A stretch of DNA of 64,000 bases. Source: a virus (taxonomy: Duplodnaviria > Caudoviricetes). This document shows positions 3 through 44,571 of this stretch, one piece after another (within the stretch, counting starts at the first letter, position 1; each line of letters starts with the position of its first letter). The notes under the pieces were generated by a model. The model did no database searches. It was given only the letters and a program-made list of their open reading frames with translations, and was not told the DNA's origin. The DNA lies in IMG/VR virus record IMGVR_UViG_3300027805_000006. The stretch is one strand, 5' to 3'. Position numbers and translations under genes: made by a program.

Positions 3-719
3 GGTACCTACTGGCACAGCGCTAAGTTCCAAAATGAAAAGCAGAGTTTAGAAAAACTGACCATGATGGAGCAGATTGGCTGTCGTCTAATTACGCTGCA
101 GGAGCACCTGTGGGTCAATAAGCCTGAGCACGTCAAGAACCGGTTGGCGTCAATTCTAGGTAGAAATAAACGAGTGCAGGGTAGAAAAACAGAGGTACGC
201 GAGATTGACAAGGAAGCGGCGCGGGAGTTCCTAACTGAGAACCACCTTCAGGGCTATGCACGTTCAACTGTGCAACTTGGTCTGTTTTACAAGGATGAAC
301 TCATCTCAGTTGCTACCTTCTCAAAGCCAAGGTGGGCAAAAAAGCATGACTGGGAATTAATTCGCATGGCTTCAAAGGCTGGATTAATGGTGCAGGGTGG
401 ACCATCAAAACTTATATCTGAGTTTAGGAAAAATTATTCTGGAAGTTTAATAAGTTACGCTGATCGGTGCTGGAGCACAGGCAACGTTTATAATCAAGTT
501 GGTTTTAAGTTTAGCCACTTTACGACTCCCTCCTATTGGTGGATCCACCATATGTTGGGAACATATGCCAGGTACCAGACACAGAAGAAAAAACTTCCAA
601 GGCTCCTCACAGATCTTAATAAGACGTTTTCTCCAGAACTTTCTGAGGAAGACAATATGCGAATTGCTGGGTTTTTGCCGCTGTATGACCGAGGAAATAG
701 CGTTTGGATTTTAGCCTAA
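3..719 (+). CDS. Hef-like homing endonuclease (PD-(D/E)XK/Vsr-like), 5' end outside the window
   Basis: The frame is open from base 3 (GTYWHSAKFQNEKQSLEKLTMMEQIGCRLITLQEHLW), matching the GxYWHS...LIxxxExxW nuclease motif. It is followed by the Hef-type C-terminal domain (FLTENHLQG, LGLFYKDELISVATF, WELIRMAS, SYADRCWSTGNVY, YDRGN). Confidence 0.8.
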   Translation, partial: GTYWHSAKFQNEKQSLEKLTMMEQIGCRLITLQEHLWVNKPEHVKNRLASILGRNKRVQGRKTEVREIDKEAAREFLTENHLQGYARSTVQLGLFYKDELISVATFSKPRWAKKHDWELIRMASKAGLMVQGGPSKLISEFRKNYSGSLISYADRCWSTGNVYNQVGFKFSHFTTPSYWWIHHMLGTYARYQTQKKKLPRLLTDLNKTFSPELSEEDNMRIAGFLPLYDRGNSVWILA

Positions 720-1028
720 TTCGTTGCTGACGACAAGCGTCTTGACGCCATCTCGCTCTTCTACCTTTAGACGGAGCGTATCTAGTTGCTCATCCGATAG
801 GTAACTATTCATGCCCCATCTTTTTCCATGCTTCGTGGAAAATAGCCAGTCATTATACTTGTATTCTACTGACGACAACTCACCGTCTTTTATTTGCGTG
901 TATTTTCCAATAAGTTCAGCAACGTGCACTGGCTTACCAGCATCGAGCCACTTTTTGATTGTTTCGACGGCAAGCCTACCTCGCATGGATACCTTATCGC
1001 TGAAGTCCAGTATTTCCGTCAGAAGCAT
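711..1028 (-). CDS. Hypothetical protein, candidate head-internal protein (leader MLLTE)
   Basis: 105 aa, last gene of the tightly packed 711-2668 array. C-terminal LKV..RDGVKTL resembles LKV..IDGVKTL in 2315-2668. Confidence 0.75.
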   Translation of the reverse strand: MLLTEILDFSDKVSMRGRLAVETIKKWLDAGKPVHVAELIGKYTQIKDGELSSVEYKYNDWLFSTKHGKRWGMNSYLSDEQLDTLRLKVEERDGVKTLVVSNELG

Positions 1029-1625
1029 TTAAACCTCTTTTTGATTTACCCAAATAGTTTCAAGAGGTTTCTTTACTATGCTTTTTCCTTCAGAAATAAT
1101 TCCAATTTTCATCTGCTTAATCATTTGGGGAGTTATGTCTCTTGAGCGAAGACCACCTCTTAAGAAGAAATGAACAGGTACAGGTGCATCGCCAAGCATG
1201 CGGCGAATAGTACGCATTCTTCCTCTTCCCTCGTGTCCCCTTATTTTTGGCAGTGAAAACAGATCATCTTCATCTTCTGAAAATTGTATTGATAAGAAAG
1301 GAATTCCAACCGCATATCCCTCTTTTATCAGACGTTCAAGTTCTATAGATGTAGGTTCCTGTGCGCCATCATCAGAAAGAGCCAGGCTTAAAAACACTGA
1401 AGGCTTAACCATTGCCACAAAGCCCTCATACCAAACATTTTGATTACTTGGTACTGAACCTAGCCCATCAGAAGCGCTAAAGGTTATATCACCTATTCTG
1501 TAATTTTTTTCCGCGTGGGCTGGTGACCAGGCAGGAGCATCAACAATTTTCTTGGCATAGACCTTTCGGTCTTCTTTATTTTCTCTTACGGATGTAATTC
1601 CAAGAAACTGCTTAAACGTCTTCAT
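1029..1625 (-). CDS. Candidate head-internal protein with ParB/sulfiredoxin-like domain
   Basis: Leader MKTFKQFL. PFL...KIRGHEGRGRMRTIRRMLGDAPVPV resembles the ParB/Srx (D)GHHR...A...LG...VPV motif. Confidence 0.65.
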   Translation of the reverse strand: MKTFKQFLGITSVRENKEDRKVYAKKIVDAPAWSPAHAEKNYRIGDITFSASDGLGSVPSNQNVWYEGFVAMVKPSVFLSLALSDDGAQEPTSIELERLIKEGYAVGIPFLSIQFSEDEDDLFSLPKIRGHEGRGRMRTIRRMLGDAPVPVHFFLRGGLRSRDITPQMIKQMKIGIISEGKSIVKKPLETIWVNQKEV

Positions 1626-1628
1626 AAC

Positions 1629-1991
1629 TTATTTTTCCTTATGACCAGTAAAAATAAGTTTATTGTGCCCTTTACCATTAACATTAAACAGTATTTTAAA
1701 CTTGTCCACGTCTTCTTCTTTAATTTCCATCTCTCTTTGGCCCGTAAAGTCACCAAAATCCTCGTTCCAGTGATCGTAATAGATAACAACAGGTGTTTGT
1801 ATTTTTCCAGAAGAGTCCGTATATGGATGCCCAACTTCCGCACCACCGACCACTCCGACATAATAGCCATCATCATAGTTGTCAATAAAGATATTCAAAC
1901 CATTGTGCGTATCACTAACACGGTTTATCATTTTTATAAAAAATGCCGCGTCTATCATCTCAGTAATAAACTGTTTAAAGGTTTTTTGCAT
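1629..1991 (-). CDS. Candidate head-internal protein (leader MQKTFKQFITE)
   Basis: 120 aa. Paralogous N-terminus with its neighbours (FxxE(M/F)xDxxFxxK(M/L)I). Confidence 0.75.
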   Translation of the reverse strand: MQKTFKQFITEMIDAAFFIKMINRVSDTHNGLNIFIDNYDDGYYVGVVGGAEVGHPYTDSSGKIQTPVVIYYDHWNEDFGDFTGQREMEIKEEDVDKFKILFNVNGKGHNKLIFTGHKEK

Positions 1992-1992
1992 T

Positions 1993-2328
1993 TTAATCTT
2001 TCATCAGCAGCGCATTTCTCTTCTTGCCGGTGGGAGATAGTACAGTGCCAAAATAAAGTTTATCAATATCATCTTTGTGAATGGATAAAACCGCTGGAAC
2101 AAATGTGTGTTCATACTCGCTCCACGCTTTGAACTCAATATCTATACCACCGCCAGAATTAACACTAACACCATCATATTCTGGTGATTCAATTTCACCT
2201 TCTTCATAGTTACCATCATTGTAGTAGCCTTGAAGATAAAGAGGGGAAATAGCCTGCTTTTTCCTAATTAACTTTACAAGAAACTCTGAATCCATAAATT
2301 CAAGAAGGAAGTGCTTAAATGTTTTCAT
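1993..2328 (-). CDS. Candidate head-internal protein (leader MKTFKHFLLE)
   Basis: 111 aa, paralogous N-terminus, abuts or overlaps its neighbours. Confidence 0.75.
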   Translation of the reverse strand: MKTFKHFLLEFMDSEFLVKLIRKKQAISPLYLQGYYNDGNYEEGEIESPEYDGVSVNSGGGIDIEFKAWSEYEHTFVPAVLSIHKDDIDKLYFGTVLSPTGKKRNALLMKD

Positions 2329-2668
2329 CTTTAGTAAGTATTAAGGTTTTGACGCCATCAATTGTTTTTACTTTGAGGTTTGGAATTAGGCTTCTGTGAA
2401 TATGGATAATTGGATTATTTTTATCAAAATCATCATCAAAATTCTTCCTATATTCAACAAACAGACCTTCCAAACTTCCCACCCAGACCTTGTTAATAAA
2501 ACCTTTTGCTTGCATAGAAGAATCGTTTGGCAAGTCATATTGAACAAGTGGAAAGTCTTCTGGTGCTATTTTAATGGCAAATTTGCCGCCGGCATCAACT
2601 GACTTCTTTATCATCTTGACAATGAATTCTTTATCGAACTCTAATAGAAATTGCTTGAATGTCATCAT
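2315..2668 (-). CDS. Candidate head-internal protein (leader MMTFKQFLLE)
   Basis: 117 aa, first gene of the array, about 20 nt downstream of a GTAAATA box. Confidence 0.75.
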   Translation of the reverse strand: MMTFKQFLLEFDKEFIVKMIKKSVDAGGKFAIKIAPEDFPLVQYDLPNDSSMQAKGFINKVWVGSLEGLFVEYRKNFDDDFDKNNPIIHIHRSLIPNLKVKTIDGVKTLILTKDENI

Positions 2669-2689
2669 TTTTGAAAGTAAAGTACAATA

Positions 2690-2696
2690 TATTTAC
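2690..2696 (-). promoter_or_regulatory. Late promoter-like box GTAAATA for the internal-protein array
   Basis: TAAATA core in the intergenic gap, as upstream of most late genes here; gp55 is encoded in the window. Confidence 0.6.
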
Positions 2697-2736: not shown

Positions 2737-2758
2737 GAAAGGGCCCGAAGGCCCTTTC
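2737..2758 (-). terminator. Rho-independent terminator after tail sheath, C(UUCG)G tetraloop
   Basis: Minus strand GAAAGGGCC-TTCG-GGCCCTTTC followed by GTTTT; T4-type UUCG hairpin. Confidence 0.85.
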
Positions 2759-5689: not shown

Positions 5690-7537
5690 TTACAACTTGC
5701 TTGTCAATGATTTCTTTTCTTCAAGGTTCAAAATCGCCAACTGTGATGGCTTGTGTGCAGAGCGTTCATTTCGCCTGTCAGTTTCAACGAAAATCCAGCG
5801 GTTCTTGACCGTGCTGAACTTATAAAGACGGGATGCAATCCTCATTTCTGGAGGATAGTTTAGTCTAAAGAACGAACCATCTGTTTGGCCTGCAACATCA
5901 GGTAGTTTAAAGCCCTCAGTGTAAGGCTGTCCATCTGGTGGCAGACCGTCTTCAACATAAAGACCTCTGCCATCATAACTACCAGGTCGATTAAACCTGT
6001 CCATACCAGATGCATTTTCACGAACGTTTGTTCCCTTCTCGGGAACAGCCTGTTCTGCTTCAGCCTGATTATTCTCTGTAACAGTTAGAGGTGCAGTTTG
6101 AATTTGCTCAATGCCATCAAAGAATGTTGCATCGTCAATTGAATATTTTTGCGTATTGATGGTGCCAAGAATGTCTCGGTGTTCCTGTCCTGGAATTAAC
6201 TGCTGTGCAGTGAATCGATAGAGGATAGGCTTCCACCCAGTGCTATAGCCCTCTGCTGACCAGCCCACATCAGTTATCTCCAGAAATTTGCGTACTGGCT
6301 TTAGGTTGTGGTCATACTGAATTTCTGCTGGAAGGTCAAGAACGTCACCTACGACAATTGGGCGCCCAAGTGCTCTTACCATTTCAGCAAATGAAAGAGT
6401 AAAGGTGTAAACATCTGCAATCTGGAAGCCAAACTTAGACATATCATTCATACCATCAAATGGCTGATACGATGCCTTAAGTTGAATACTGGATGTTGCG
6501 TAGTCTCTGTCTCTATTCTCCATCCAAAGTGTGTCTTGTATGTTATCAAGACTTGTAGCAGTATAGTCAAACAGTTCAAGTTTATCTACAGACCATGCTT
6601 CCCCAATACCACCAAGAAAAACAGTTGGCACAATTCTCCAGTACCTTGACGCTGATGACTGTTTGATGCTGATTGTTGCCGCTGTTGGAATATCAGGAAG
6701 GTTAACTACATCTACTCTAAACCAGTCAAGTTCTATAGGCACGGTAAAAAAATCACCTAGTGCAAATGGAATTGTTCCTGCTGTAATAGTGAATGAGCCT
6801 TCTTCACAGTTGAAGCGTTGGTTAACCGTCGCAACACCTACTACAGAAATTCCAGTGCTTTCCATAAACGTCACTGAGAATGTTGTGGCTGAGAGGGCTG
6901 AAAGCATAAACAAACCAGGTCTAGATGAAAGACCAGATCTAAATGCTTCAAATACTCCATTTCCAGTGCCGGTATATTCAACTTTGGTATAGTCGACCTT
7001 ATAGCCACCATTTGAGCGGTCAATTCTAACCTGTCTTGCCCTTACTGGCCCTGGCTGTGTAATCTTAAATGATGTTATGTGTTGTGCTGCAGAAACCCCT
7101 GGCGCATTTTCATCTTGTCCATAACTTGTTTGCCGCACACCAAAATCATAGCCTATCCATGCTGGTGTTAATAGTACGTCTGTGCTAGTTTCATCGCTTA
7201 CCCATGACGGAGCAAGAGAGTCAAATGCATTTGATGCATCTCCACTGGATGAAATTGCGCTTCCATTTCCAGTCAAGTCAATTAATTTTCCCTGTTCGTG
7301 AATTCCCAGCAGTTTGAAAACATTGATTGGCACACCAGAAATATTGAGTGCCTCTGCTGCTAGTTGCTCCTGGAAGTTGTTCTCTGGAACAGCACAGTCG
7401 CCTTGAGTGATAGTGAAGTCACCCTTACACAGATCGGGTGGGATATAAGGGCCTGGGCTAGGCAACGGAGAATTTGCAGGGTTATTGATTGACCCTGCAC
7501 CGTCTGGGCACTCAGTAATTGGAAGTTTGGATGTCAT
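5690..7537 (-). CDS. gp14: Neck/head-closure protein with large internal insertion
   Basis: gp14-like segments (AEALNISGVPINVFKL; ENRDRDY...FGFQIADVYTF; GDVLDLP...FLEITDV) flank an insert of about 250 aa with a discoidin-like part (AFD...W...WIGYDFG) and a GTGNG module. Confidence 0.75.
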   Translation of the reverse strand: MTSKLPITECPDGAGSINNPANSPLPSPGPYIPPDLCKGDFTITQGDCAVPENNFQEQLAAEALNISGVPINVFKLLGIHEQGKLIDLTGNGSAISSSGDASNAFDSLAPSWVSDETSTDVLLTPAWIGYDFGVRQTSYGQDENAPGVSAAQHITSFKITQPGPVRARQVRIDRSNGGYKVDYTKVEYTGTGNGVFEAFRSGLSSRPGLFMLSALSATTFSVTFMESTGISVVGVATVNQRFNCEEGSFTITAGTIPFALGDFFTVPIELDWFRVDVVNLPDIPTAATISIKQSSASRYWRIVPTVFLGGIGEAWSVDKLELFDYTATSLDNIQDTLWMENRDRDYATSSIQLKASYQPFDGMNDMSKFGFQIADVYTFTLSFAEMVRALGRPIVVGDVLDLPAEIQYDHNLKPVRKFLEITDVGWSAEGYSTGWKPILYRFTAQQLIPGQEHRDILGTINTQKYSIDDATFFDGIEQIQTAPLTVTENNQAEAEQAVPEKGTNVRENASGMDRFNRPGSYDGRGLYVEDGLPPDGQPYTEGFKLPDVAGQTDGSFFRLNYPPEMRIASRLYKFSTVKNRWIFVETDRRNERSAHKPSQLAILNLEEKKSLTSKL

Positions 7538-8310
7538 AGGTTCACTTGAGGTGGCTCACAGGAAATATGATATCTATTTAGGGCAACCAGTGTAGTTTCC
7601 TTGCGACACCGACAACACGAGGCTCTTGGCACAAATTGTCTTCCTTTATTAACTACTGACAGATGTGCACGTTGTGCTTCTGTCATAGGAATTCCCTTTG
7701 GGCGGCCTCCCTTGTTGGTACCAAGTTTCATGCGAGTTACTGCCGCCTTTTGACCGCGCTGTTTGAGAACTTCTTGAGGTGCTGAGGAATAGTAGCGCTC
7801 TTGACCAGCTTTGAGATTTTGCTTTTGGCCGCCGGTGCGCTTCTTGCCGGTATTGGCCTTGGCACGCTTGGCCACAATCTCAGGAGTAGCGATCTTCTTG
7901 ATGTGTTCAGCCATGGCGACAGCGTCAGCCTTGCGCTTTGCCCACATCAAATCTGCTGCCTCCTTGCACTTCCGCCGTGCTTCTTCACGCAAGGTCTTGA
8001 TTTCTTCCTGATTTGCATTTCCACCCTTGATGATGTTCATGCACATAGGATTTGATAGCATTTCATCAGTTACAATTTCACCTTCCCGTCTAATGAGCGT
8101 TGCACGATCTTCACAATGCTCCAGAATTTGAACAATGTGGGCATTTTTGCCATGCTTTTTAATACTCTTCCAAAGGCGTGATCCACTTCCTTGATACCCG
8201 TCGTTTAGATCATCGGTGCTGTGTAGTCCTATGTACCACTTGCCGGTGAGCGTGCAGGTAGTCTTGTAGATGATGTGATACTTGCGGTGTTTCGGTCTAG
8301 TGACTTCCAT
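7534..8310 (-). CDS. Free-standing GIY-YIG (Seg-like) homing endonuclease
   Basis: IIYKTTC...GKWYIGLHSTDDLNDGYQGSG, NUMOD3-like basic repeats and a C-terminal Cys cluster. Confidence 0.9.
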   Translation of the reverse strand: MEVTRPKHRKYHIIYKTTCTLTGKWYIGLHSTDDLNDGYQGSGSRLWKSIKKHGKNAHIVQILEHCEDRATLIRREGEIVTDEMLSNPMCMNIIKGGNANQEEIKTLREEARRKCKEAADLMWAKRKADAVAMAEHIKKIATPEIVAKRAKANTGKKRTGGQKQNLKAGQERYYSSAPQEVLKQRGQKAAVTRMKLGTNKGGRPKGIPMTEAQRAHLSVVNKGRQFVPRASCCRCRKETTLVALNRYHISCEPPQVNL

Positions 8311-14611: not shown

Positions 14612-15892
14612 TTAGCTAAATGCCACATTTTGTACTAGAACGCGAGCGTAGTAATCTGCGCTGTTGCCCAGTGATGTGCCTGTGCTTGTGAAAGTTGCCT
14701 TACCATAACGTGTCATCAGGCTGACTGCTGGCATGAAGGTGTTGGCATCAACAACTACGCCAGAAGACATTAGAGGAACGTATGGGCAGTAGAAGTAACC
14801 GCTGTCGAGTTCAGAGGCACCGCCCTTGAAGCCGATCAGGATGTCTTCGCCTGTTGCGCCGGCAGCATTTACTGCACCGCCGCTGATTGACCATGCGTCA
14901 TTTACACCCCAATTGTATGAGTAAACCTTCATCTGACCATTCATTGTGCCAACCATACGGTTGCCAACTGGTGCATCGAAGGAACCTGATACTGCTGGTG
15001 CAAATACTGACTTAGCGGCTGACTGGAGCATAGAAGTGATCAGGTGACCACCGACTAGCCAGTTGCCAGGACCACGACGGGTCTTAGCACCGATTTCGTT
15101 AGCCATCTTGTTGATCAGTACGCCGAGGTGGGCATAGCGATCGCCTAGATAGTTAGGTGCAAAACCTGGTGTGGCTGATGCAAAGTCGAACGTTGCCGTT
15201 GTGTTTGCCAGAGCCAGTAGGTCTGTCAGGATTTCATTGTCGATTTCGTGAGCGATTTGTGCTGATAGAGCAGCAGTTAGTTCGCTCTCGAGGTCCAGAC
15301 CGTGCTGTGCATTCAGGTCTTGAGCAGCTTCCATTGACCAGCGAGCTTGCAGCTTACGTGAGCCAGCTGTGATGGTCTGCTTCAGAACTGATAGACGCAT
15401 TGCCTTACCACCAAAGCCTTCGAAGTTGCCAGTCGTGGCGGCGAAGCCGTCAGATGTAGCAGCTGTTACAGCTGGTGGGTAGCCGGCGGTACCGACGTTT
15501 GCAGAAGAGTAGAAACGCTTCATCTTGCTGTTATTGCCGAAGGCTTCGTCGCCAGCAGCAATATCGTTTCCAGCAACTACTGAGGCGCCAGTGGCGTCAG
15601 CAGCTTCGCTGAAAGCAAAACGCAGTGAGTATACTAGTCCTACTGGACCAGACATTGGCTGAACGCCAACTAGGTCAGAGGAAATCGTACCTGGAAGGAT
15701 ACGACGGATCATTGGAATTACAATCTTCTGGAAGTTTGCAATATCACCAGCGCCTTGAGCGCCAGCTGGTGCTGTTTCCATTAGATGCTTTTTTTGGTTT
15801 TCTAGAAGAGTCTCGACGACCTGCTTCTTTGAACCCTGGAGGCCTTCAAGAAGAGCCTCTTTGGTCTCTTGCCAGTTTTCAAACAGTTGCAT
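14612..15892 (-). CDS. gp23: Major capsid protein
   Basis: PMIRR...LVGVQPMSGPVGLVYSLR; RKLQARWSMEAAQDL.AQHGLD.E.EL; EIDNEIL; GYFYCPYVPL; F.P....TRY. Probable protease site after LME39. Confidence 0.97.
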   Translation of the reverse strand: MQLFENWQETKEALLEGLQGSKKQVVETLLENQKKHLMETAPAGAQGAGDIANFQKIVIPMIRRILPGTISSDLVGVQPMSGPVGLVYSLRFAFSEAADATGASVVAGNDIAAGDEAFGNNSKMKRFYSSANVGTAGYPPAVTAATSDGFAATTGNFEGFGGKAMRLSVLKQTITAGSRKLQARWSMEAAQDLNAQHGLDLESELTAALSAQIAHEIDNEILTDLLALANTTATFDFASATPGFAPNYLGDRYAHLGVLINKMANEIGAKTRRGPGNWLVGGHLITSMLQSAAKSVFAPAVSGSFDAPVGNRMVGTMNGQMKVYSYNWGVNDAWSISGGAVNAAGATGEDILIGFKGGASELDSGYFYCPYVPLMSSGVVVDANTFMPAVSLMTRYGKATFTSTGTSLGNSADYYARVLVQNVAFS

Positions 15893-17220: not shown

Positions 17221-17652
17221 TCATTTTGCAATCTCCTCTAAGGATTTTGCTAGACTTGACATCGCATCCATATAGTCTTGTGAGGATGAAGAGAATTTTC
17301 CTTCTAACTCCTTCTTTAGTAGATCACAAACTTCGCCAGCAAATTGCTTCCATTCCTTGATTTTTCTGAACTCCTTATGCTTTTCATTTATTACCATTGC
17401 AACATTCAACGTGCCGTGAGTATTGTATGCATTGCCTTTATCACGAAGACCTTCACGCAGGGCGCTGATTGCCACCTTACAAAGTTCACGATCTATCACT
17501 ACCTTTGGAGCAATCGACCCGTACTTATCATCCAACCTACTCTTGGCAATCAAGAGAGCGTCTTTAACATCAAGAGAAAGGTCAAATGCTGAATCGGATT
17601 TACTAACAGTGAATCCGGCAAACCCTTCAACAATAATTTCAGAAAGCTTCAC
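17221..17652 (-). CDS. Hypothetical head-region protein with leader MKLSE (GTG start)
   Basis: 143 aa, between the two gp67-like genes. Confidence 0.7.
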   Translation of the reverse strand: MKLSEIIVEGFAGFTVSKSDSAFDLSLDVKDALLIAKSRLDDKYGSIAPKVVIDRELCKVAISALREGLRDKGNAYNTHGTLNVAMVINEKHKEFRKIKEWKQFAGEVCDLLKKELEGKFSSSSQDYMDAMSSLAKSLEEIAK

Positions 17653-18178: not shown

Positions 18179-18790
18179 TTATTTTGAGCCCTTGCGAATT
18201 GCTTCAAGAAGACATAAAATTTCCTTTTTCAAATAAGCTTGTGCATTCTTATCATGTACTACTGTTTCAGCAAGAGACATAATCTTCTTGCTTCCAAGTG
18301 CTTCCATAACTGCAGATGGGTAGGCATCAGGAGCAGATGGCTGTGACACGATGTCTACGGTAACGAATGAGAAGTCAGAAACTTCTCCACTCTCATTTAC
18401 GTTTCCAGTTCCGCGTGATGATACTCCTAGTCTTACTCCACCCTCAATTAGACCGCGTGCAATATTTCCGCAGGGGGTGTTAAGAAGTTTCATCTTGCCA
18501 ACAACGTTATTTCCATCCATTGTCATTTCAGAAATGACGTGTGATACTCTTCCAAGGTCAATTGACAGGGTGTCAGGGTGATTTAGTTCGCCGCAAATGC
18601 TAAAGCCTTCGCTGATTTTCTTCTGTGCAGACTCAACTACCTTTGACATTTCTGCGGAGCGGTACTTTCTTCCATTTCCATTTACACACTCTGCCTGCAT
18701 CAGAATACCCTTTAGGTATAGGTCTTGGCCCTTGCGCATTTCGCAGAGGCTAGCAGTAGATGGTGAAAGCTGTTCTGTTAAGATTTTCAT
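18179..18790 (-). CDS. gp21: Prohead protease
   Basis: G..MQAE..N.NGR.Y; GELNHP (His); LGVSSRGTG (Ser); FVTVDIVSQPSAPDA. Confidence 0.95.
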   Translation of the reverse strand: MKILTEQLSPSTASLCEMRKGQDLYLKGILMQAECVNGNGRKYRSAEMSKVVESAQKKISEGFSICGELNHPDTLSIDLGRVSHVISEMTMDGNNVVGKMKLLNTPCGNIARGLIEGGVRLGVSSRGTGNVNESGEVSDFSFVTVDIVSQPSAPDAYPSAVMEALGSKKIMSLAETVVHDKNAQAYLKKEILCLLEAIRKGSK

Positions 18791-18828
18791 TTTTTCCCCT
18801 TAAGCATGGGTAAAAGTGTAATTACGTT

Positions 18829-18836
18829 TATTTATC
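18829..18836 (-). promoter_or_regulatory. Late promoter-like box GATAAATA for gp21
   Basis: Lies between the homing endonuclease stop and the gp21 start. Confidence 0.6.
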
Positions 18837-18864
18837 TGATATAAGCACATTTGCTTATATATTT

Positions 18865-19695
18865 TCATGCGCAGCATGTGCTTATAACCTTTGATATCCA
18901 AGCATTCACTGTACTTTCAGGAATGCCCGTTTGCTTCGAAATATCTACTCTGAGTATTCCAACTTTTGCAAGCGATATAACGTGAAGTTGAGTCTCTCTA
19001 GAGTGTCTTTTCATAAAGATGAATCCCGGTATCTTTGCAGCATCAATTGACTGCAGTAACGAAGAATGTTCAATGTTTTTTCTGTACGATGGATTTTTTA
19101 TACCAGATATGGATGAAGACTGTTTTTTACGATACTCAGAGTTGTTTTTGTTTTTTCCACGGTGAAGAATGCTTATTTTTTTAGCCATTCTGGCAAGAGC
19201 ATCTGAAGTTTGCTTTGTGCGCCCTCTCAGTTTATCTGATATTTGCGCGATATAGGCATGTGTATGTTTTGTTCTACCACTCAGTGCCGCAGACATTCTC
19301 TTCAACCCCAAATCAGTATCTTTAGTTTTGCCTCTACGTTTTTCTGCAGTTTTTGCTACAGCAGTCTTTAGTTTTTCTTTATCTCTTTGCCAGCGCTTGC
19401 ACAACGGAACAGTATCCAAATATCCTCCTCGGCCACCAAGCACTAAATTGAGACACTTTGGGTCAAGAAGCGTTTCGTAATTTACAAGTTTGCTTTCAAG
19501 AAGATATGCCTCATGCTTAGTTAGATGCTGCGCAAGAACTTGTTTTTTAGGCACGGCCGTCCTAAGCGCGCGCTTTAACGCCTTTCCTGATCCCCAATAA
19601 ACATCGGTGCGTATAGTTTTGTTTCCCGGCAACTTTCTAACACCGATGTAGTACTCACCGGTGTCAAAAGTTGTTTTATACGCATAATGCGTCAT
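18865..19695 (-). CDS. Free-standing GIY-YIG (Seg-like) homing endonuclease between gp20 and gp21
   Basis: Start moved to ATG 19695, just after the portal stop. HYAYKTT...YYIGVRK...YWGSG; repeated K.RG.TK.T motifs; C-terminal HTH. Confidence 0.85.
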   Translation of the reverse strand: MTHYAYKTTFDTGEYYIGVRKLPGNKTIRTDVYWGSGKALKRALRTAVPKKQVLAQHLTKHEAYLLESKLVNYETLLDPKCLNLVLGGRGGYLDTVPLCKRWQRDKEKLKTAVAKTAEKRRGKTKDTDLGLKRMSAALSGRTKHTHAYIAQISDKLRGRTKQTSDALARMAKKISILHRGKNKNNSEYRKKQSSSISGIKNPSYRKNIEHSSLLQSIDAAKIPGFIFMKRHSRETQLHVISLAKVGILRVDISKQTGIPESTVNAWISKVISTCCA

Positions 19696-19696
19696 T

Positions 19697-21361
19697 TTAT
19701 GCTGCTGGAGGTGTAGTTTCTGCTGCTGGCGCTTCAGCCGGCGCTTCTGCCGGCGCTTCAGCAGGCGCCTCTCCGCCAAAGAAGCCACCACCTAATTCGC
19801 CACCTGCTCCAAGTTCGGCGCCTGGCATACCAGCACCTGCTTCAGGGGTTACTGCTTCTCTATTCTCATAAACGGCGGGGTCATAAATTTGCTGCATAGA
19901 TGGGATATTAGTATTCTCAGTAATCCCACGCTCTTCCTTAACCATCACCTCGTTCATCTGGATCTCATCATCGGTCAGACCTAGGTATCTCTTCAGAACG
20001 AAGCGCTTTGAGAGTGTCTTTTCAGCAGAGATATTGTTGAACGAACTAATGAGATCTGCATCAAGAGCCGCTTGGCGATAAAGGGCAAAGTTTGCTGGTT
20101 CTGGGAGTTTAAGGCTGAACAGTTCGTCATCAATCTTTAGACCACACACCTTTAAGTAAATCTTAAACTCATTGTCAAGAATATCTTCAAGACGATCTTG
20201 AAGGCGCTTGACGAAGTTAGCAAAACGCAGTTCCTCAATATAAGCGATACCCACTTTTCCATCATTGTATTGAGACCCACCAGCATCAGAGCCAGAAAGG
20301 TACGATGATGGTACTCTGAGCCCTCGGAACAATTTATCTCTAAAGTACTTTAGTAGATTTGTACCGAAGTCCTCAGTTCCACCTGCTAGAGTTTCTACCT
20401 TCGATCCTCGACCAGTTGCAGTGACTGGGAAGAAGTAGTCTTCTTGAAGGCTTGTTGGGTCATATTGTCCGTCAATGATGTCCTTCTGACCGCTGCTTGT
20501 TTGACCAGGAACTCTCTTTTGGCGAATTTCATTCTTTACCTGCTCGAGGTACTGCTTTACCCGCTGTGCTGGCATATTGCCGACGTCGACGTAGAACACA
20601 CGCCGCTCTGGAGCACGTACGATTCTATAAATGACAACTGCATCTTCAATCATTGACAGTTGTCTGAATATTCTAAAGATTGGGCGAAGAACTGACTGAC
20701 CAAATGGTGCGCTGTCTCCCATCTCATCTGACATTGAGAAGTGAATCATCGCCGCTGCAGGAATAACATCCATCTCCTCATTTCTCACGCCATAGTTAGA
20801 TGTGCTGCCTGATGGCTTTCCTGGTTGCTTAAGATGGTAGTTGATTTTATTTCCCTGTTGGTCAATTTCAATACCATGCACTAAAGATGGATCAACCCAC
20901 ACCCAGCGCTTCGTATCAGATGTCTTTCTGAAGAAGCAGTCACCATATTTGATGAGATCACGGCAAATCTTGAACATTCGACGGTTGAGTTCCTGCATCT
21001 GCGACCATTGTCTAACAGCCTGACGAAGGGTAACTGCTGTTGTATCTGAAACGTCTTGATTTTCTTCTTTGTTATATTCAATAATAAATGGAAGCTTTGT
21101 CTTGCTATCTTTATTGCTCATCTCTTCTGCAATAACGTCAAGTGCTCTGGAAATATCAATGTCTGCGTCCATTGAGTCATATTGTTTGTAATTTGCCATT
21201 CTTGACCCTGGGCCTCTCAGAATTTGAGAGTACCACGTGATTGCCGCCATTGACGTTAGGTCAGTTGTCCTTGGGTCATAGGCATCTGTAGAAATGGTAG
21301 TATAAAGTTGCTTTCTTGACGCTGGAGTTATAATTTTCCAATATGATGAAAATTGTGCCAT
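19697..21361 (-). CDS. gp20: Portal vertex protein
   Basis: FG.SVL......RQL.MIEDAVVIYRIVRAPERRVFYVDVGNMP...QY; EDYFFP...GRGSKVETL.G; L..LRVP.S; EELRF..FV.RLQ. Confidence 0.97.
   Translation of the reverse strand: MAQFSSYWKIITPASRKQLYTTISTDAYDPRTTDLTSMAAITWYSQILRGPGSRMANYKQYDSMDADIDISRALDVIAEEMSNKDSKTKLPFIIEYNKEENQDVSDTTAVTLRQAVRQWSQMQELNRRMFKICRDLIKYGDCFFRKTSDTKRWVWVDPSLVHGIEIDQQGNKINYHLKQPGKPSGSTSNYGVRNEEMDVIPAAAMIHFSMSDEMGDSAPFGQSVLRPIFRIFRQLSMIEDAVVIYRIVRAPERRVFYVDVGNMPAQRVKQYLEQVKNEIRQKRVPGQTSSGQKDIIDGQYDPTSLQEDYFFPVTATGRGSKVETLAGGTEDFGTNLLKYFRDKLFRGLRVPSSYLSGSDAGGSQYNDGKVGIAYIEELRFANFVKRLQDRLEDILDNEFKIYLKVCGLKIDDELFSLKLPEPANFALYRQAALDADLISSFNNISAEKTLSKRFVLKRYLGLTDDEIQMNEVMVKEERGITENTNIPSMQQIYDPAVYENREAVTPEAGAGMPGAELGAGGELGGGFFGGEAPAEAPAEAPAEAPAAETTPPAA
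19728..19768. repeat. 12-bp tandem repeat encoding (AEAP)n at the portal C-terminus
   Basis: GGCGCTTC(A/T)GC(C/A), about 3.5 copies. Confidence 0.8.
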
Positions 21362-21373
21362 TTATTTTTCCTA

Positions 21374-24300
21374 TTACGCTGTGCCTGTTGTAATAAAGCC
21401 CCAAAGTTTTTCAGCAGAAGTCATCTCTGGTCGATTTAGCGATTTGAGCATGTTCTCTGTTGGGTCACCTTGAGAAGTTAAGAATGCAAGTGTCTGCTTC
21501 AAAACTTCAAGTTGCTGCTGCGCTACAGTCAAAAGTTCTGCTTGACTTAGCCCCTCTTTAGTTGCTGCTACCGCTGTTCCTTCTGCTGGAGTTGTTTCTG
21601 TTGTTGCTGGAGTTTCATTTTTATTTAGACCTGGCTCAACCACAGTTGGCTGTTTAGCAGGTTGAGGTGTTGCTACTTGTGGTGGTTGCTGCTGTGCTGG
21701 GGCTGCCTGAACTGCTTCTTTCTTTACTGGCTCTGCCTGCACGGTCTGTTTTGCAGGTTCTGCTTGAATATTCTCCTTCTTTGCAGGTTCTGCCTTTACA
21801 GGTTCTTCCTTCTTCTTTTCTTCCTTCTTTTTCTTTTCTTCTTCCTTTCTAGCCGCTTCAGCATTAACGTTTCTAACTGATTGAACGGTGCGAGAAGCAG
21901 ATGCAGCGAGGTCATCGAGAGTTGTCACTCTATCGTTAACTAGAACTTCTGTCTTCTTCTTTGATTTCTCTAACGCCTTTTGGTTTTCCTCACCGATGGA
22001 GCGCAGGGTTGCTCCTTCTTTTTTCCATAAGTCTTCACGCAGTTTTGCACCTTCTGCGATGCCTTGGTCAAGTTCATCTGCCTGTGCTCGCAGACCCTTT
22101 ACCCACTTGTTATCCTTGCCCACGAATGGAAGAGACTCAATAATTAACGCGAGGCCCTTCAGAATCCCGGCGCCTAGCATCTTCCAAAAGTCCACGAATG
22201 CAGAGGTACCGTAATCAATAATTTTTGTGGTGTTGACCTTGAAACTAATACCAAGTGCTTCAAATACTGAGTTTACGCCCCAGTCAAAAATCCTTGTAAA
22301 TCCAGTAAACAAACCATTTAACCCCGCAATTAACATTCCCCCTAATTTTCCAAACAATCCTTCGCCAAAGCCAAGTGCAGCGCCCATTTCACCAGTGAAT
22401 AATTCCTCAATAGCACTTATGATTCCACCAAGAAGAGCACTTCCTTTAAAGAAACCACTAATTGATGAAAATATTCCCTTGACTGCAGCAACTGCACCGT
22501 TAAACATACCAGATACTGAACCTACCGCCTTTGCCGCCAAACCAGAAATTGATGAAAATATTCCCTTGACTGCAGCAATTGCACCGTTAAACATACCAGA
22601 TACTGAACCTACCGCCTTTGCCGCCAAACCAGAAATTGATGAAAATGCGCTGGAAAACATACCAGTGACTGATGAAAAAATTCCCTTAAAAATTCCTGTT
22701 ATAGGGGTAAGTACTTTTCCAGCAGTTGTTGCAATTGTTGAAAATACACCTGAAACTTTTGAACCAAAATCTTTTAAGAATTTCATTGCACCAGTAGCAG
22801 CGCCAATTCCTTTGCCCTGTATGGCTGCAAGTATTTTGGCATACCACATTGACTGTATTGCAGTTTGTGCCACAAGGCCTGTCACCTCAATTGCAGCCTC
22901 TCCTAAAGGGTTCTTTGCAAAGCCGGAAAATACTGTCATTCCCTTTCCAATTGTCTGCAGAATTCCACCAGTCTCCTTTCCAATCTCTTCATTTTGTACT
23001 GGCCCTGCATCTGTCTGAAGTTTTGCTTTAGCTGCTGCCTTTTGTGCTTCTCCATACGGAGTTCCAGCAAGTTTTTCACTTAACTGTTCACCGATAAATT
23101 CTGCCTGAATATTTCCAGTATTTTGCATTGCCTGCAGACGAGATTCCATCTGACCAGATAATTCAACGAATCTCTTTTCTTCTTCTGGGGTTTTCCTTTT
23201 CTTTTGTGATAGCCTTGCTAGTTCTTCGGTTTCGCCAGCAGACATGCCAGTAATTGCGCCAGCCTGACGTATTAGTCCTGCTGCCTGCATTCGTTGCTGG
23301 GCAGTTGCCTTGCGCTGGGCAAGCAGCGCATTAGTAAGCCCTGCCGATGCCTCTTTGGTCAAGCCCATCTGCTGACCTAAAGTAGCAGTATCCATCAATT
23401 GCGCCATCCGGGCCTGGCGTTCAGCAGGTGCAAGTCCTATTAAATCCTCCTGTACGTTTTCATTACTAGCAATGTCCTTCATCAATTCTTGGAAGGCAGT
23501 TGAAGTCATCATCGTAGTTTTACGAAGCTTCTCAAACTGCTTTACCTGCGCATTAGTAGCATCTGCCTGCTTTTCCATTGGAATGCCAAGCATTACAGAA
23601 TTAGTCTGCATTGATGCTGCTAACCTTTCTGCTGCTGGGCCAAATGTGCCTAGTCGTGCAAGGTCATGTGTTGTCTTATCAACTCTATCGCCGAAGTCAT
23701 CAAAACTTCTTGCTCTTACAACCGCTGCCTGGTTGTCCTCCATCATCTCTGTGTATTCCTGCAGACTCATACCTGCAGTAATTGCATCACCATAAAGACC
23801 GGCTAGACTACTTGCTGCGCTAACACCGCGGGCCTGAAGATAAAAAATATCTTTGCCTAAACCAACAAATGCATCACCTAATATTCTAAGCGCATTTCTT
23901 AGCTCTATTTTGAATTTTTCAGTCTCTTCTCCCGCTTCTTCAACTTTGCCAGAAAAGTCATCTACATCTCTGCCTGCCGACTCAAGTTCTCCAGCAAAGT
24001 CATCGACATCACGTGCAGAACTGCGAATAGTTGCTGTAGATTCGGCAACGGCTTCTCCGAGGTCACCAGCAAAGTCATCTATATCCCTAACAGTTGCCTT
24101 TACGGTTTCTACAGACCCAGCAAAGTCGTCTACTGAGCGTACAAGGGCATCACTACCTTCAGCCGGCCCCTTAACCTCTGCAACACTGTCAATCTTTGAA
24201 ACTGCGCCCGTAAAGGAAGAGCCAAGGGCTCTAATTCCCTTTCTCATTCCAAGAAGGTCGCCTCTTACACCCCTAAAAGATTTGCCTAATTTTTCTGCTT

Positions 24301-24499
24301 CAAATGTCAGATCTTTTAACCCACGGGTGGCAACAATAATCGTCTTATCAAGAGATTCTGAATCTTGACTTTGCTTACCTCCCTTGCCACCAGGCAGCCT
24401 TCTTTGCTCAGACGGAGCAGCGCCCTTGTTAGCAAGTAGCGACTGCTCAAGCAGTTTCTCTATTCGTTGCAGGGTTTTTAATGCTTGGGTTTCATCCAT
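21374..24499 (-). CDS. Tape-measure-like protein
   Basis: 1041 aa, largely helical and Ala/Gly-rich with amphipathic F-periodic repeats. Lies head-to-head with gp26/gp51 and has a late box at 24548. Confidence 0.75.
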   Translation of the reverse strand: MDETQALKTLQRIEKLLEQSLLANKGAAPSEQRRLPGGKGGKQSQDSESLDKTIIVATRGLKDLTFEAEKLGKSFRGVRGDLLGMRKGIRALGSSFTGAVSKIDSVAEVKGPAEGSDALVRSVDDFAGSVETVKATVRDIDDFAGDLGEAVAESTATIRSSARDVDDFAGELESAGRDVDDFSGKVEEAGEETEKFKIELRNALRILGDAFVGLGKDIFYLQARGVSAASSLAGLYGDAITAGMSLQEYTEMMEDNQAAVVRARSFDDFGDRVDKTTHDLARLGTFGPAAERLAASMQTNSVMLGIPMEKQADATNAQVKQFEKLRKTTMMTSTAFQELMKDIASNENVQEDLIGLAPAERQARMAQLMDTATLGQQMGLTKEASAGLTNALLAQRKATAQQRMQAAGLIRQAGAITGMSAGETEELARLSQKKRKTPEEEKRFVELSGQMESRLQAMQNTGNIQAEFIGEQLSEKLAGTPYGEAQKAAAKAKLQTDAGPVQNEEIGKETGGILQTIGKGMTVFSGFAKNPLGEAAIEVTGLVAQTAIQSMWYAKILAAIQGKGIGAATGAMKFLKDFGSKVSGVFSTIATTAGKVLTPITGIFKGIFSSVTGMFSSAFSSISGLAAKAVGSVSGMFNGAIAAVKGIFSSISGLAAKAVGSVSGMFNGAVAAVKGIFSSISGFFKGSALLGGIISAIEELFTGEMGAALGFGEGLFGKLGGMLIAGLNGLFTGFTRIFDWGVNSVFEALGISFKVNTTKIIDYGTSAFVDFWKMLGAGILKGLALIIESLPFVGKDNKWVKGLRAQADELDQGIAEGAKLREDLWKKEGATLRSIGEENQKALEKSKKKTEVLVNDRVTTLDDLAASASRTVQSVRNVNAEAARKEEEKKKKEEKKKEEPVKAEPAKKENIQAEPAKQTVQAEPVKKEAVQAAPAQQQPPQVATPQPAKQPTVVEPGLNKNETPATTETTPAEGTAVAATKEGLSQAELLTVAQQQLEVLKQTLAFLTSQGDPTENMLKSLNRPEMTSAEKLWGFITTGTA
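22461..22646. repeat. 87-bp (29-aa) near-perfect tandem duplication in the tape measure gene
   Basis: Units start at 22461, 22548 and (partial) 22635, with one mismatch between the full copies; peptide SISGLAAKAVGSVSGMFNGA(I/V)AAVKGIFS. Confidence 0.95.
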
Positions 24500-24530
24500 T
24501 GTTTAGCCTGGAAGTGACGCTCTTTCGAGC

Positions 24531-24537
24531 GTAAATA
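24531..24537 (+). promoter_or_regulatory. Late promoter-like box GTAAATA for gp26
   Basis: Faces the minus-strand box at 24548-24555. Confidence 0.55.
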
Positions 24538-24547
24538 TATCATAGCA

Positions 24548-24555
24548 TATTTATC
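24548..24555 (-). promoter_or_regulatory. Late promoter-like box GATAAATA for the tape measure gene
   Basis: The leader contains the hairpin ACGCTC-GAAA-GAGCGT (24517-24532). Confidence 0.6.
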
Positions 24556-24563
24556 ATACGGGG

Positions 24564-44172: not shown

Positions 44173-44571
44173 ATGAAACTAACTGAAATTCTTGATGAAA
44201 ATGAATCGGTGTTGGCAGGTATACTTGAGCGTAAATTTGGAAAGGAACCAATTTACGTAGTAGCGCGCTTTCGACGTCCATTTACACTTGGCAGAAAACT
44301 TTATGTTGGTAAATTACGATTCAATGCTGGTGAAAAAATACAAAAGGAAGACATGCGAAAAGATGGAAACTGGCGCTTTATTTTAAAACTAGACAGCCCT
44401 AAAGATGTAGTTTACCCACTTGCAGATTATTTTGACAAACAGTTTATGCTAAAGAAAATGGGTAAAGACAATAAGTTGGTACTAGTTAATAGACAGCAAG
44501 AAGATTATTATCCATATCCAGAAGAACTTGAAGCAGGCTTTGCAAAACTTGAGGCCGCAGAAAAAACATAA
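44173..44571 (+). CDS. Candidate head-internal protein (leader MKLTEIL)
   Basis: 132 aa inserted in the baseplate operon; the leader matches 711-1028 (MLLTEIL). Confidence 0.7.
   Translation: MKLTEILDENESVLAGILERKFGKEPIYVVARFRRPFTLGRKLYVGKLRFNAGEKIQKEDMRKDGNWRFILKLDSPKDVVYPLADYFDKQFMLKKMGKDNKLVLVNRQQEDYYPYPEELEAGFAKLEAAEKT

What the first reader, a model, noticed from the sequence alone, without database searches (positions are those of the whole stretch)
711..2696. Five-gene tandem array of paralogous proteins with T4 capsid-targeting-sequence-like leaders: candidate injected internal or anti-defence cassette
Seen: five abutting minus-strand ORFs under one GTAAATA late box begin MMTFKQFLLE, MKTFKHFLLE, MQKTFKQFITE, MKTFKQFL(GITSVRE) and MLLTE. 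Three continue with (F/M)xDxxFxxK(M/L)I, and two end in LKV..DGVKTL, yet the bodies are otherwise very divergent. Known: T4 internal proteins IPII/IPIII carry the CTS MKTYQEFIAE and IPI begins MKTFKEF. The leader directs packaging and is removed by gp21 after (I/L)-x-E. IPI inhibits the GmrSD restriction enzyme, and T-even IPI loci are hypervariable arrays. Inference: this is an unrelated, diversified array of capsid-packaged effectors injected with the DNA, possibly aimed at host defence systems.
Basis: partly seen in the sequence, partly recalled or inferred. Interest (0 to 1): 0.85.

Follow-up and report, generated by a model that had tools for sequence, protein, structure and literature searches.

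The report
T4-style capsid-loading tags, jumbo phage
Four adjacent genes of an uncultured giant T4-related phage start with nearly the same 10-residue tag that phage T4 uses to load proteins into its head. They are therefore probably head-packaged, protease-trimmed cargo; this is a new example of a known mechanism, not a new kind of system.

Summary
Five abutting minus-strand ORFs lie between the tail sheath and tail tube genes, behind a terminator and a (A/G)TAAATA late-type promoter motif.

O1-O4 begin M(x)TFK(Q/H)F[LI]. This keeps the four positions shown in T4 IPIII to matter: 4 and 7 for targeting, 8 and 10 for processing.

The window also encodes the T4-type head machinery: portal, a gp21-family S77 protease with its His and Ser motifs, and a gp23-type capsid protein with LxE sites in its propeptide.

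"Five paralogues" is only partly right:
- O2 and O3 are firm paralogues and O1 is a divergent one. They form a small helix-plus-beta-barrel family restricted to this clade.
- O4 is an unrelated ParB/sulfiredoxin-fold protein.
- O5 is an orphan whose start resembles T4 Alt's propeptide.

In relatives the same tag heads many unrelated proteins. The small domain is also fused in front of the O4 body, with a [LVI]xE site at the junction.

One tagged protein of the cultured relative RsoM2USA (ORF89) is a published abundant virion protein.

Packaging is likely (about 0.7). An anti-defence role is untested.

This scan has already found T4-like tags on other phage DNA.

The parts
2737..2758 (-). Intrinsic terminator after the tail sheath gene, upstream of the array
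   Evidence: 9-bp stem with 6 GC pairs, a 4-nt loop and a T run; sequence.
2690..2696 (-). GTAAATA late-promoter-like motif; the TAAATA core starts 27 nt before the O1 ATG
   Evidence: TAAATA occurs 52 times on both strands of the 104-kb record. Thirty-nine sites are followed within 100 nt by the start of an ORF of 60 aa or more. These include the sheath, protease and neck genes and the genes for the large virion proteins. T4's late promoter is TATAAATA (established knowledge).
2315..2668 (-). O1, 117 aa: tag MMTFKQFLLE plus a divergent small helix/beta-barrel domain
   Evidence: ORF. Leave-one-out profile E 3e-9, or 1.4e-4 without the tag. No homologue by word search. Absent from the close relative L061, where a homing endonuclease gene sits instead.
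1993..2328 (-). O2, 111 aa: tag MKTFKHFLLE plus the small-domain family
   Evidence: Leave-one-out E 1.9e-22, and 4e-16 against a tag-stripped profile built only from fusion proteins. 86% identical in L061, where the tag reads MTSFKQFLTE.
1629..1991 (-). O3, 120 aa: tag MQKTFKQFITE plus the small-domain family; closest to the N-domain of the fusion proteins
   Evidence: Leave-one-out E 1.5e-20. 42% identical to the N-terminal domain of P0006. Model pLDDT 87: a helix followed by a small beta-barrel. 100% identical in L061.
1029..1625 (-). O4, 198 aa: tag MKTFKQFL, with the probable cut site displaced to VRE15, plus a ParB/sulfiredoxin-fold body carrying an invariant GHEGRxR motif
   Evidence: 49 homologues, nearly all starting M-x-TFKQF[LI]xE directly before the body. 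Model pLDDT 90.6. All nine PDB representatives with Z of 2 or more are ParB/Srx-fold proteins, best Osa 4ovb at Z 6.7 over 122 residues. BFVD hit to a 1096-aa 'ParB/Sulfiredoxin' phage protein, E 1.6e-13.
711..1028 (-). O5, 105 aa: orphan starting MLLTEILD, with start codon abutting the O4 stop (TAAATG)
   Evidence: ORF. Not found by the family profile when left out. Only local matches to O1. No database homologue. Its L061 counterpart is 49% identical. LTEILD is shared with the start of ORF 44173-44571. T4 Alt starts MELITELFDE.
18179..18790 (-). gp21-type prohead protease (Peptidase_S77), the enzyme expected to remove the tags
   Evidence: Pfam PF03420, E 8.9e-28. 32% identical to T4 gp21, with GELNHP and GVSSRG conserved.
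14612..15892 (-). gp23-type major capsid protein, with LLE and LME sites in its N-terminal propeptide
   Evidence: Pfam PF07068, E 2.3e-88. Sequence. 25% identical to T4 gp23. Alignment to mature gp23* places the cut near LLE30 or LME38.
44173..44571 (+). 132-aa ORF starting MKLTEILDE: the second (Alt-like) tag class, lying between two giant virion protein genes
   Evidence: Eight more ORFs with this tag class lie 4.6-11 kb before the window start.

Best explanation
O1-O4 are late-expressed proteins loaded into the prohead by an N-terminal capsid targeting sequence of the T4 internal-protein type.

Proposed mechanism. An amphipathic tag, M-x-T-F-K-Q-F-[L/I]-x-E, docks the protein on the scaffolding core as the shell assembles. 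The phage's gp21-family serine protease then cuts after the [L/I]-x-E. For O4 the cut is after a later V-R-E, as T4 IPI is cut after a later I-T-E. The mature protein stays in the head with the DNA and most probably leaves with it at infection.

Cargo. There are two kinds. One is a basic ParB/sulfiredoxin-fold protein (O4), probably an NTP-binding or NTP-hydrolysing, possibly DNA-nicking enzyme that acts at the moment of DNA entry. The other is three copies of a small acidic-to-neutral helix-plus-beta-barrel domain (O1-O3). In relatives this small domain is also the tagged front half of fusion proteins whose back half is the O4 body or another domain, with a [LVI]xE site between them. The small domain is therefore functionally tied to the cargo, as a carrier, partner or inhibitor.

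O5 may enter by a different, Alt-like propeptide, or not at all.

The locus lies between the sheath and tube genes, is flanked by homing endonuclease genes, and changes content between close relatives.

Shown here: the tags, their N-terminal specificity and modularity, the protease, the folds, the fusions and the promoter-like motif.
Inferred: packaging, cleavage, ejection and every downstream function.
For: 1. Tag identity. T4 IPII and IPIII start MKTYQEFIAE and IPI starts MKTFKEF.... Mutagenesis of the IPIII tag mapped targeting to residues 4 and 7 and processing to residues 8 and 10 (PMC9026906). Here F4, F7, L/I8 and E10 are the conserved positions.

2. Machinery. The window encodes an S77 protease with the conserved His and Ser motifs, a T4-type portal and a gp23-type capsid protein with LxE sites in its propeptide.

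3. Modularity. The tag heads unrelated proteins:
- the ParB/Srx fold and the beta-barrel domain in this window;
- an amidoligase-like protein of about 500 aa;
- proteins of 119-151, 201 and 281-285 aa in 46 related loci;
- at least seven proteins in RsoM2USA.
The motif is almost exclusively N-terminal and is held at the peptide level.

4. Cut-site logic. In unfused O4 homologues the body starts right after F[LI]xE. In fusions the same body is preceded by SLDE, KVDE, SVNE or LITE.

5. Experiment in a relative. RsoM2USA ORF89 (MKTFKQFLSE..., 253 aa) is one of ten abundant virion bands identified by LC-MS/MS (PMC8504454; mapped).

6. Timing. O1 has the (A/G)TAAATA motif that also precedes the virion genes.

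7. Precedent for the cargo. ParB/Srx domains of the DdrB type are known head-packaged, late-gene-linked phage domains (PMC5512222). O4's fold recurs inside very large phage proteins, including ones carrying lysozyme or acetyltransferase domains.
Against: - There are no proteomic or N-terminal data for this phage, and it is uncultured.
- O4 lacks E at position 10. Its presumed VRE site has V at P3, which is not the canonical L/I.
- O1 has no Shine-Dalgarno sequence, and database gene callers started O2 and O3 at the Met just after the tag.
- The mature small proteins are acidic to neutral, unlike the basic T4 IPs.
- The RsoM2USA identification rests on gel bands and says nothing about tag removal.
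- XacN1 and PA5oct, other relatives with the same head module, have no such tag.
- The promoter motif is a consensus match only.
Confidence: 0.7

Rival explanations
1. The proteins are packaged by the tag, but they act in head assembly or DNA condensation (as proposed for T4 IPIII and IPII) and not as effectors in the next host. The small domain would be a core or scaffold accessory.
For: - T4 IPIII loss slows head assembly, and the roles of IPII and IPIII are unsolved.
- The small domain is present in three to four copies and has no enzyme-like fold.
- It also sits in front of cargo like a pro-domain.
Against: - O1-O3 are not basic.
- Copy number is not conserved: O1 is missing from a close relative, and some relatives carry only the O4 gene. 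That argues against a needed assembly role.
- O4 has an enzyme fold typical of injected conflict proteins.
Confidence: 0.2
2. The shared N-terminus is an address or recognition peptide for something other than the head. Candidates are docking to the neck or tail, whose genes surround the array, or recognition by a modifying enzyme, as this scan proposed for a radical-SAM-linked tag in phage RB43.
For: - Tagged genes cluster around the neck, sheath and tube genes and not in the head module.
- An earlier case (e1-127136) shows that a shared leader need not be a capsid signal.
Against: - The tag matches the experimentally defined T4 CTS at all four functional positions and ends in the gp21 cut motif.
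- T4's own IP genes are also scattered outside its head module.
- The fusion junctions keep a [LVI]xE site, which only makes sense for protease processing.
Confidence: 0.08
3. The tags are merely inherited from a common ancestor by gene duplication and have no present targeting role. The proteins would be ordinary cytoplasmic late proteins.
For: O1-O3 are paralogues, so a shared start is expected among them.
Against: - O4 and at least five other tagged families have unrelated bodies.
- The tag is kept while bodies diverge to below detection.
- Synonymous codons vary freely.
- Between close relatives, the O2 tag changes at four of ten residues yet keeps the pattern.
Confidence: 0.05

Closest known systems
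[quoted passage not shown]
   Same: - A tag of about 10 residues with aromatic residues at 4 and 7, L/I at 8 and E at 10. MKTFKQF matches IPI's MKTFKEF at 6 of 7 positions.
- A gp21-family protease is present.
- The bodies are unrelated and fast-evolving.
- The locus is variable.
   Different: - The host phage is a jumbo phage whose capsid protein is only 25% identical to gp23.
- The bodies share nothing with the IPs and are not basic, apart from O4.
- One cargo is an enzyme fold.
- Some relatives use a tagged small domain fused in front of the cargo, with an internal cut site.
- Packaging is not demonstrated.
T4 Alt (packaged ADP-ribosyltransferase with a short N-terminal propeptide, MELITE|LFDE)
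   Same: O5 (MLLTEILD) and a second tag class in this genome (MKLTELFE, MKLTEILDE, MKMFELFEED) resemble Alt's start and contain an L/I-x-E site. Distant O4 homologues begin MKVSELFE or MKVRELFE.
   Different: The resemblance covers 6-9 residues only. The bodies show no ART domain. The targeting role of Alt's own propeptide is itself not proven.
DdrB-like ParB/Srx domains of phage P1 DdrB and of polyvalent proteins (Iyer et al. 2017, PMC5512222)
   Same: ParB/Srx fold, encoded next to late virion genes, found solo or inside very large phage proteins, and a precedent for incorporation into the head.
   Different: - No sequence-profile match to any Pfam ParB model.
- Delivery here would be by a T4-type tag, not by the P1 Dar system or a giant fusion.
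- The lineage-specific DdrB residues were not checked.
Osa (plasmid pSa fertility-inhibition protein, PDB 4ovb)
   Same: Best structural match to O4 (Z 6.7, 122 residues). A ParB/Srx fold with reported ATPase and DNase activity, used in a conflict between mobile elements.
   Different: 17% identity; a plasmid protein with a type IV secretion context; the score is in the range where only the fold is shared.

Membership tests
T4-type CTS-tagged internal head proteins | N-terminal tag of about 10 residues with the residues shown to matter in IPIII: positions 4 and 7 for targeting, 8 and 10 for processing | tested here: met
   O1-O3 have F4, F7, L/I8 and E10, counting from the M before x-T. O4 has F4, F7 and L8 but its E is displaced to residue 15, as in IPI where it is at 19. 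O5 does not meet it.
T4-type CTS-tagged internal head proteins | Phage encodes a gp21-family (S77) prohead protease with catalytic residues | tested here: met
   PF03420, E 8.9e-28. GELNHP and GVSSRG align with T4 gp21. That these motifs hold the catalytic His and Ser is from my own knowledge.
T4-type CTS-tagged internal head proteins | The same tag on otherwise unrelated proteins (a modular signal) | tested here: met
T4-type CTS-tagged internal head proteins | Late expression | tested here: inconclusive
   GTAAATA lies 27 nt upstream of O1, and the motif is concentrated before virion genes. No transcript data.
T4-type CTS-tagged internal head proteins | Protein present in the mature head with the tag removed, and ejected with the DNA | not testable with these tools
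   Indirect only: tagged ORF89 of RsoM2USA was identified in virions (PMC8504454). Its N-terminus was not determined.
ParB/sulfiredoxin superfamily (O4) | The alpha+beta ParB/Srx core fold | tested here: met
   Model pLDDT 90.6. All nine PDB representatives with Z of 2 or more are ParB/Srx proteins. Foldseek gives many weak ParB/Srx rows.
ParB/sulfiredoxin superfamily (O4) | Conserved Arg-containing phosphate-binding motif in the active-site pocket | tested here: inconclusive
   GHEGRxR is invariant in 25 homologues and sits at the strand-to-helix turn at residues 130-136. I did not superpose it on a solved active site.
ParB/sulfiredoxin superfamily (O4) | Match to a curated sequence model (ParBc, ddrB-ParB and the like) | tested here: not met
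   No Pfam hit for O4 or any of 25 homologues, even at E up to 10. No PDB profile hit.
T4 IPI (inhibitor of GmrSD-type restriction) | Sequence or fold similarity of the mature protein to IPI* | tested here: not met
   No Pfam or PHROG hit. IPI* is not among the structural matches of the small-domain model. Only the tag is alike.
Five-member paralogous family (as claimed) | Each member recovered by a profile of the others | tested here: not met
   O2, O3 and O1 are recovered. O5 is not (E above 1). O4 has a different fold.

The most novel reading that the evidence does not exclude
The small beta-barrel domain is not an effector but a dedicated, protease-releasable carrier or inhibitor for packaged enzymes. 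It brings the ParB/Srx enzyme, and other cargo in relatives, into the prohead, either fused or as a separate acidic partner, and keeps it harmless beside the phage's own DNA until ejection. Together with a second, Alt-like tag class in the same genome, this would mean two separately addressed cargo sets whose full membership can be read from sequence alone.
Probability: 0.15. Interest if true: 0.7.

Novelty: new member of a known kind. Interest (0 to 1): 0.5.

Why it matters
The T4 capsid targeting sequence is one of the few known rules for what a phage carries into a cell besides DNA. The same rule seems to hold, at the same four residues, in a jumbo-phage clade whose capsid protein is only 25% identical to T4's.

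If so, the packaged (and probably injected) protein set of such phages can be listed from sequence. Here that list includes a ParB/Srx-fold enzyme and, in relatives, an amidoligase-like enzyme.

The finding also points to a cultured phage, RsoM2USA, where the prediction can be tested directly. If packaging is confirmed, the tags could be tried for loading foreign proteins into large phage heads, as has been done in T4.

Tried and rejected
- Megablast of the locus against phage records: no match.
- Pfam and PHROGs on all five proteins: nothing. Pfam on 25 O4 homologues at E up to 10: only noise. PDB sequence-profile search with the O4 alignment: nothing.
- Word-index homology searches for O1 and O5 returned only the proteins themselves.
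- The exhaustive profile search with the small-domain alignment found only 16 true hits in 1.84 billion representatives. The 1045-aa hit P0064 is a false positive made of acyl-CoA-binding-like repeats.
- The small-domain model has no convincing structural relative. The best Z is 5.3, among generic Sm/SH3-like barrels; Foldseek PDB shows E above 0.07; Atlas TM is below 0.5. I do not name a fold family for it.
- Complex prediction of mature O4 with mature O3 gave no verdict (median score 0.09; one of three runs reached 0.58). It is not evidence either way.
- The tag pattern was absent from XacN1 and PA5oct, so their virion proteomes could not be used.
- The family profile does not detect the ORFs with the second tag class. 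I dropped the idea that they are remote paralogues of O1-O3.
- I considered the tag as a secretion signal and rejected it: it is short, charged and not hydrophobic enough.
Full report
**Where the window comes from.** The window is part of a 104-kb IMG/VR viral record judged 26% complete. The same proteins occur on a 330-kb contig, so this is a jumbo phage.

The window carries a T4-type head and tail module:
- portal (PF07230);
- prohead protease (Peptidase_S77, PF03420, E 8.9e-28);
- major capsid protein (PF07068);
- tail sheath and a gp15-like sheath stabiliser.

By capsid protein, the nearest cultured phages are Ralstonia phage RsoM2USA (55% identity), Xanthomonas phages XacN1 and Xoo-sp13 (about 50%) and Pseudomonas phage PA5oct (40%). 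T4 gp23 is only 25% identical and T4 gp21 32%.

**The observation.** Five minus-strand ORFs lie at 2315-2668 (O1), 1993-2328 (O2), 1629-1991 (O3), 1029-1625 (O4) and 711-1028 (O5). They overlap or are separated by at most 3 nt.

Upstream, the sheath gene ends in a strong hairpin terminator at 2758-2737. GTAAATA lies at 2696-2690, 27 nt before the O1 start.

The array lies between the sheath and tail tube genes. The tube gene was identified through the syntenic close relative L061 (phrog_4542, E 1e-40). A homing-endonuclease-like gene converges on O5.

**Is TAAATA a late signal?** The hexamer occurs 52 times on both strands of the record. Thirty-nine of those sites are followed within 100 nt by the start of an ORF of at least 60 aa, usually with A or G just before the hexamer. 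Genes preceded by it include the sheath, protease and neck genes and those for the largest virion proteins. This is close to T4's late promoter TATAAATA (established knowledge). It is a consensus match, not expression data.

**The tag.** From the T4 record itself, IPII and IPIII begin MKTYQEFIAE|A, and IPI begins MKTFKEFTSTTTPVSTITE|A.

A review of the original mutagenesis states three things. Only the first 10 residues of IPIII are needed for head incorporation. Targeting depends mainly on residues 4 and 7. Processing depends on residues 8 and 10 (PMC9026906).

O1-O3 have F4, F7, L/I8 and E10. O4 has F4, F7 and L8 but continues GITSVRE|N. This parallels IPI, which also lacks E10 and is cut at a later I-T-E.

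In the 104-kb record only these four ORFs carry the motif.

**The protease and its sites.** The window's protease aligns with T4 gp21 and keeps GELNHP and GVSSRG. To my knowledge these motifs hold the catalytic His and Ser.

The capsid protein has LLE and LME in the N-terminal stretch that precedes the region aligned to mature gp23*. The enzyme and its expected specificity are therefore both in place.

**What the five proteins are.**

*O1, O2 and O3.* O2 and O3 match each other over their full length (BLASTP 1e-6). Each is recovered by a profile built without it (2e-22 and 1.5e-20). Both are also recovered by a tag-stripped profile built only from foreign sequences (4e-16 and 6e-15). O1 is a divergent member: 3e-9 when left out, and 1.4e-4 without its tag, aligned end to end.

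*O5.* O5 is not recovered (E above 1). It shares only two short stretches with O1 and has no database homologue.

*The small-domain model.* The AlphaFold model of O3 has pLDDT 87. It shows a low-confidence N-terminal tag helix, a second helix, then a small beta-barrel. It has no convincing structural relative. The family is rare: 16 true hits among 1.84 billion representatives.

*O4.* O4 belongs to a different family with 49 homologues. Its model (pLDDT 90.6) has a ParB/sulfiredoxin fold. Every one of the nine PDB representatives with Z of 2 or more is a ParB/Srx protein: Osa (Z 6.7), sulfiredoxins, serine kinase SerK, SbnI, Atu1540, PadC, ParB and KorB.

A GHEGRxR motif is invariant in the family. 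No sequence model recognises the family.

In the viral structure library, the O4 fold recurs inside very large phage proteins. These include a 1096-aa protein annotated ParB/Sulfiredoxin (E 1.6e-13, 35% identity), as well as lysozyme- and acetyltransferase-bearing giants. That is the picture drawn for DdrB-like ParB domains of polyvalent and head-packaged phage proteins (PMC5512222).

*Charge and composition.* The mature small proteins are acidic to neutral (pI 4.8-6.9), and O4 is basic (pI 8.8). O1-O3 have 33-37% G+C against 42% for the window.

**The tag is modular and N-terminal.** Nearly all O4 homologues start M-x-TFKQF[LI]xE immediately before the conserved body.

In 46 related viral loci plus two contigs, the same tag heads several kinds of protein:
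- an amidoligase-like protein of about 500 aa between gp15 and the sheath;
- several unrelated proteins of 119-151 aa;
- proteins of 201 aa and 281-285 aa.
One locus (L036) has seven tagged ORFs.

The core motif occurs 41 times in 303,513 six-frame residues. Thirty-six hits fall in the first 20 residues, and two more sit at GTG/TTG starts. Forty-six distinct DNA instances mix synonymous codons at each conserved position. This rules out a nucleic-acid signal or recent gene conversion.

RsoM2USA has at least seven tagged genes, against none in reversed-pattern controls. XacN1 and PA5oct have none.

**Fusions.** About a dozen relatives encode proteins of about 288 aa. In these, a tagged small domain is followed by the O4 body without its own tag. 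The junctions read SLDE|E, KVDE|D, SVNE|E, VPE|E or LITE|G, so a [LVI]xE site sits just where the free O4 body begins.

One relative (P0055) joins the small domain to a different C-terminal domain. The small domain is thus tied to the cargo and may be released from it by the protease. Whether it is a carrier, a partner or an inhibitor is unknown. A complex prediction for O3 with O4 gave no verdict.

**Experimental anchor.** The RsoM2USA paper identified ten abundant virion bands by LC-MS/MS, among them ORF89 at 28.57 kDa (PMC8504454). ORF89 is the 253-aa protein that begins MKTFKQFLSE. This shows that a tagged protein of this clade is in the particle. It does not show that the tag is removed.

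**Variability.** A close relative (L061) has O3 at 100% identity, O4 at 87.5%, O2 at 86% and O5 at 49%. It lacks O1 and has a homing endonuclease gene in that position. The O2 tag differs at four of ten residues between the two phages yet keeps the pattern. Other relatives have only the O4 gene after the sheath. Homing-endonuclease-like genes flank the locus in several relatives.

O5's MLLTEILD shares LTEILD with ORF 44173-44571. Distant O4 homologues start MKVSELFE or MKVRELFE in place of the IP-type tag. But O5 is not an IP-type tagged protein, and its packaging is much less certain.

**Verdict.** Loading into the head by a T4-type tag and trimming by the gp21-type protease is the best reading for O1-O4 (about 0.7). 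The enzyme-like nature of O4 and the literature on packaged ParB/Srx domains make a role at DNA entry plausible. An anti-defence function is untested, and no protein resembles IPI.

This is a known mechanism in a distant clade with new cargo. The scan has reported T4-like tags on other phage DNA before. I therefore rate it a new member of a known kind, of moderate interest.

Noticed in passing
window 44173-44571 (+), and 4.6-11 kb before the window start (record 18654-25112, minus strand): A second family of N-terminal tags, M-K-[LVM]-x-[EQ]-[LI]-[LF]-x-E (for example MKLTEILDE, MKMFELFEED), on nine ORFs. It resembles the start of T4 Alt (MELITELFDE). A 143-aa ORF in the head module (17221-17652) starts VKLSEIIVE, and the protease itself starts MKILTE.
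   Followed up: partly
window 3-719 (+); L061 4660-6216; L006 3775-5382 and 6861-8450: Large homing-endonuclease-like genes (PHROG 559/3339, Mom-like C-terminal part) flank the array and occupy O1's position in relatives. Several copies occur per locus, and they may drive the turnover of this locus.
   Followed up: partly
L018 3431-4987, L005 2431-3987 and similar loci: An amidoligase-like protein of about 500 aa between gp15 and the sheath carries the same tag (MISFKQ[FY]L). In L005 the database gene call starts 12 codons too late and misses the tag.
   Followed up: partly
window 7534-8310 and 18865-19791 (-): Two further homing-endonuclease-like genes (phrog_314) are inserted in the neck and head modules, one between the portal and the protease genes.
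   Followed up: no
RsoM2USA record 57328-67654 (L014): ORFs 81, 82, 88, 89 and 90 share a C-terminal motif (...ELIDAGYE...) but have different N-terminal tags: MKTFKLFLSE, MKLHEISE, MKTFKQFLSE and MSFKTFLES. This is a paralogous set that mixes both tag classes.
   Followed up: no
window 1629-1991 and 1993-2328: Public gene calls for O3 and O2 (P0060, P0061) start at the Met just after the tag, so automated annotation hides the tag in databases.
   Followed up: no
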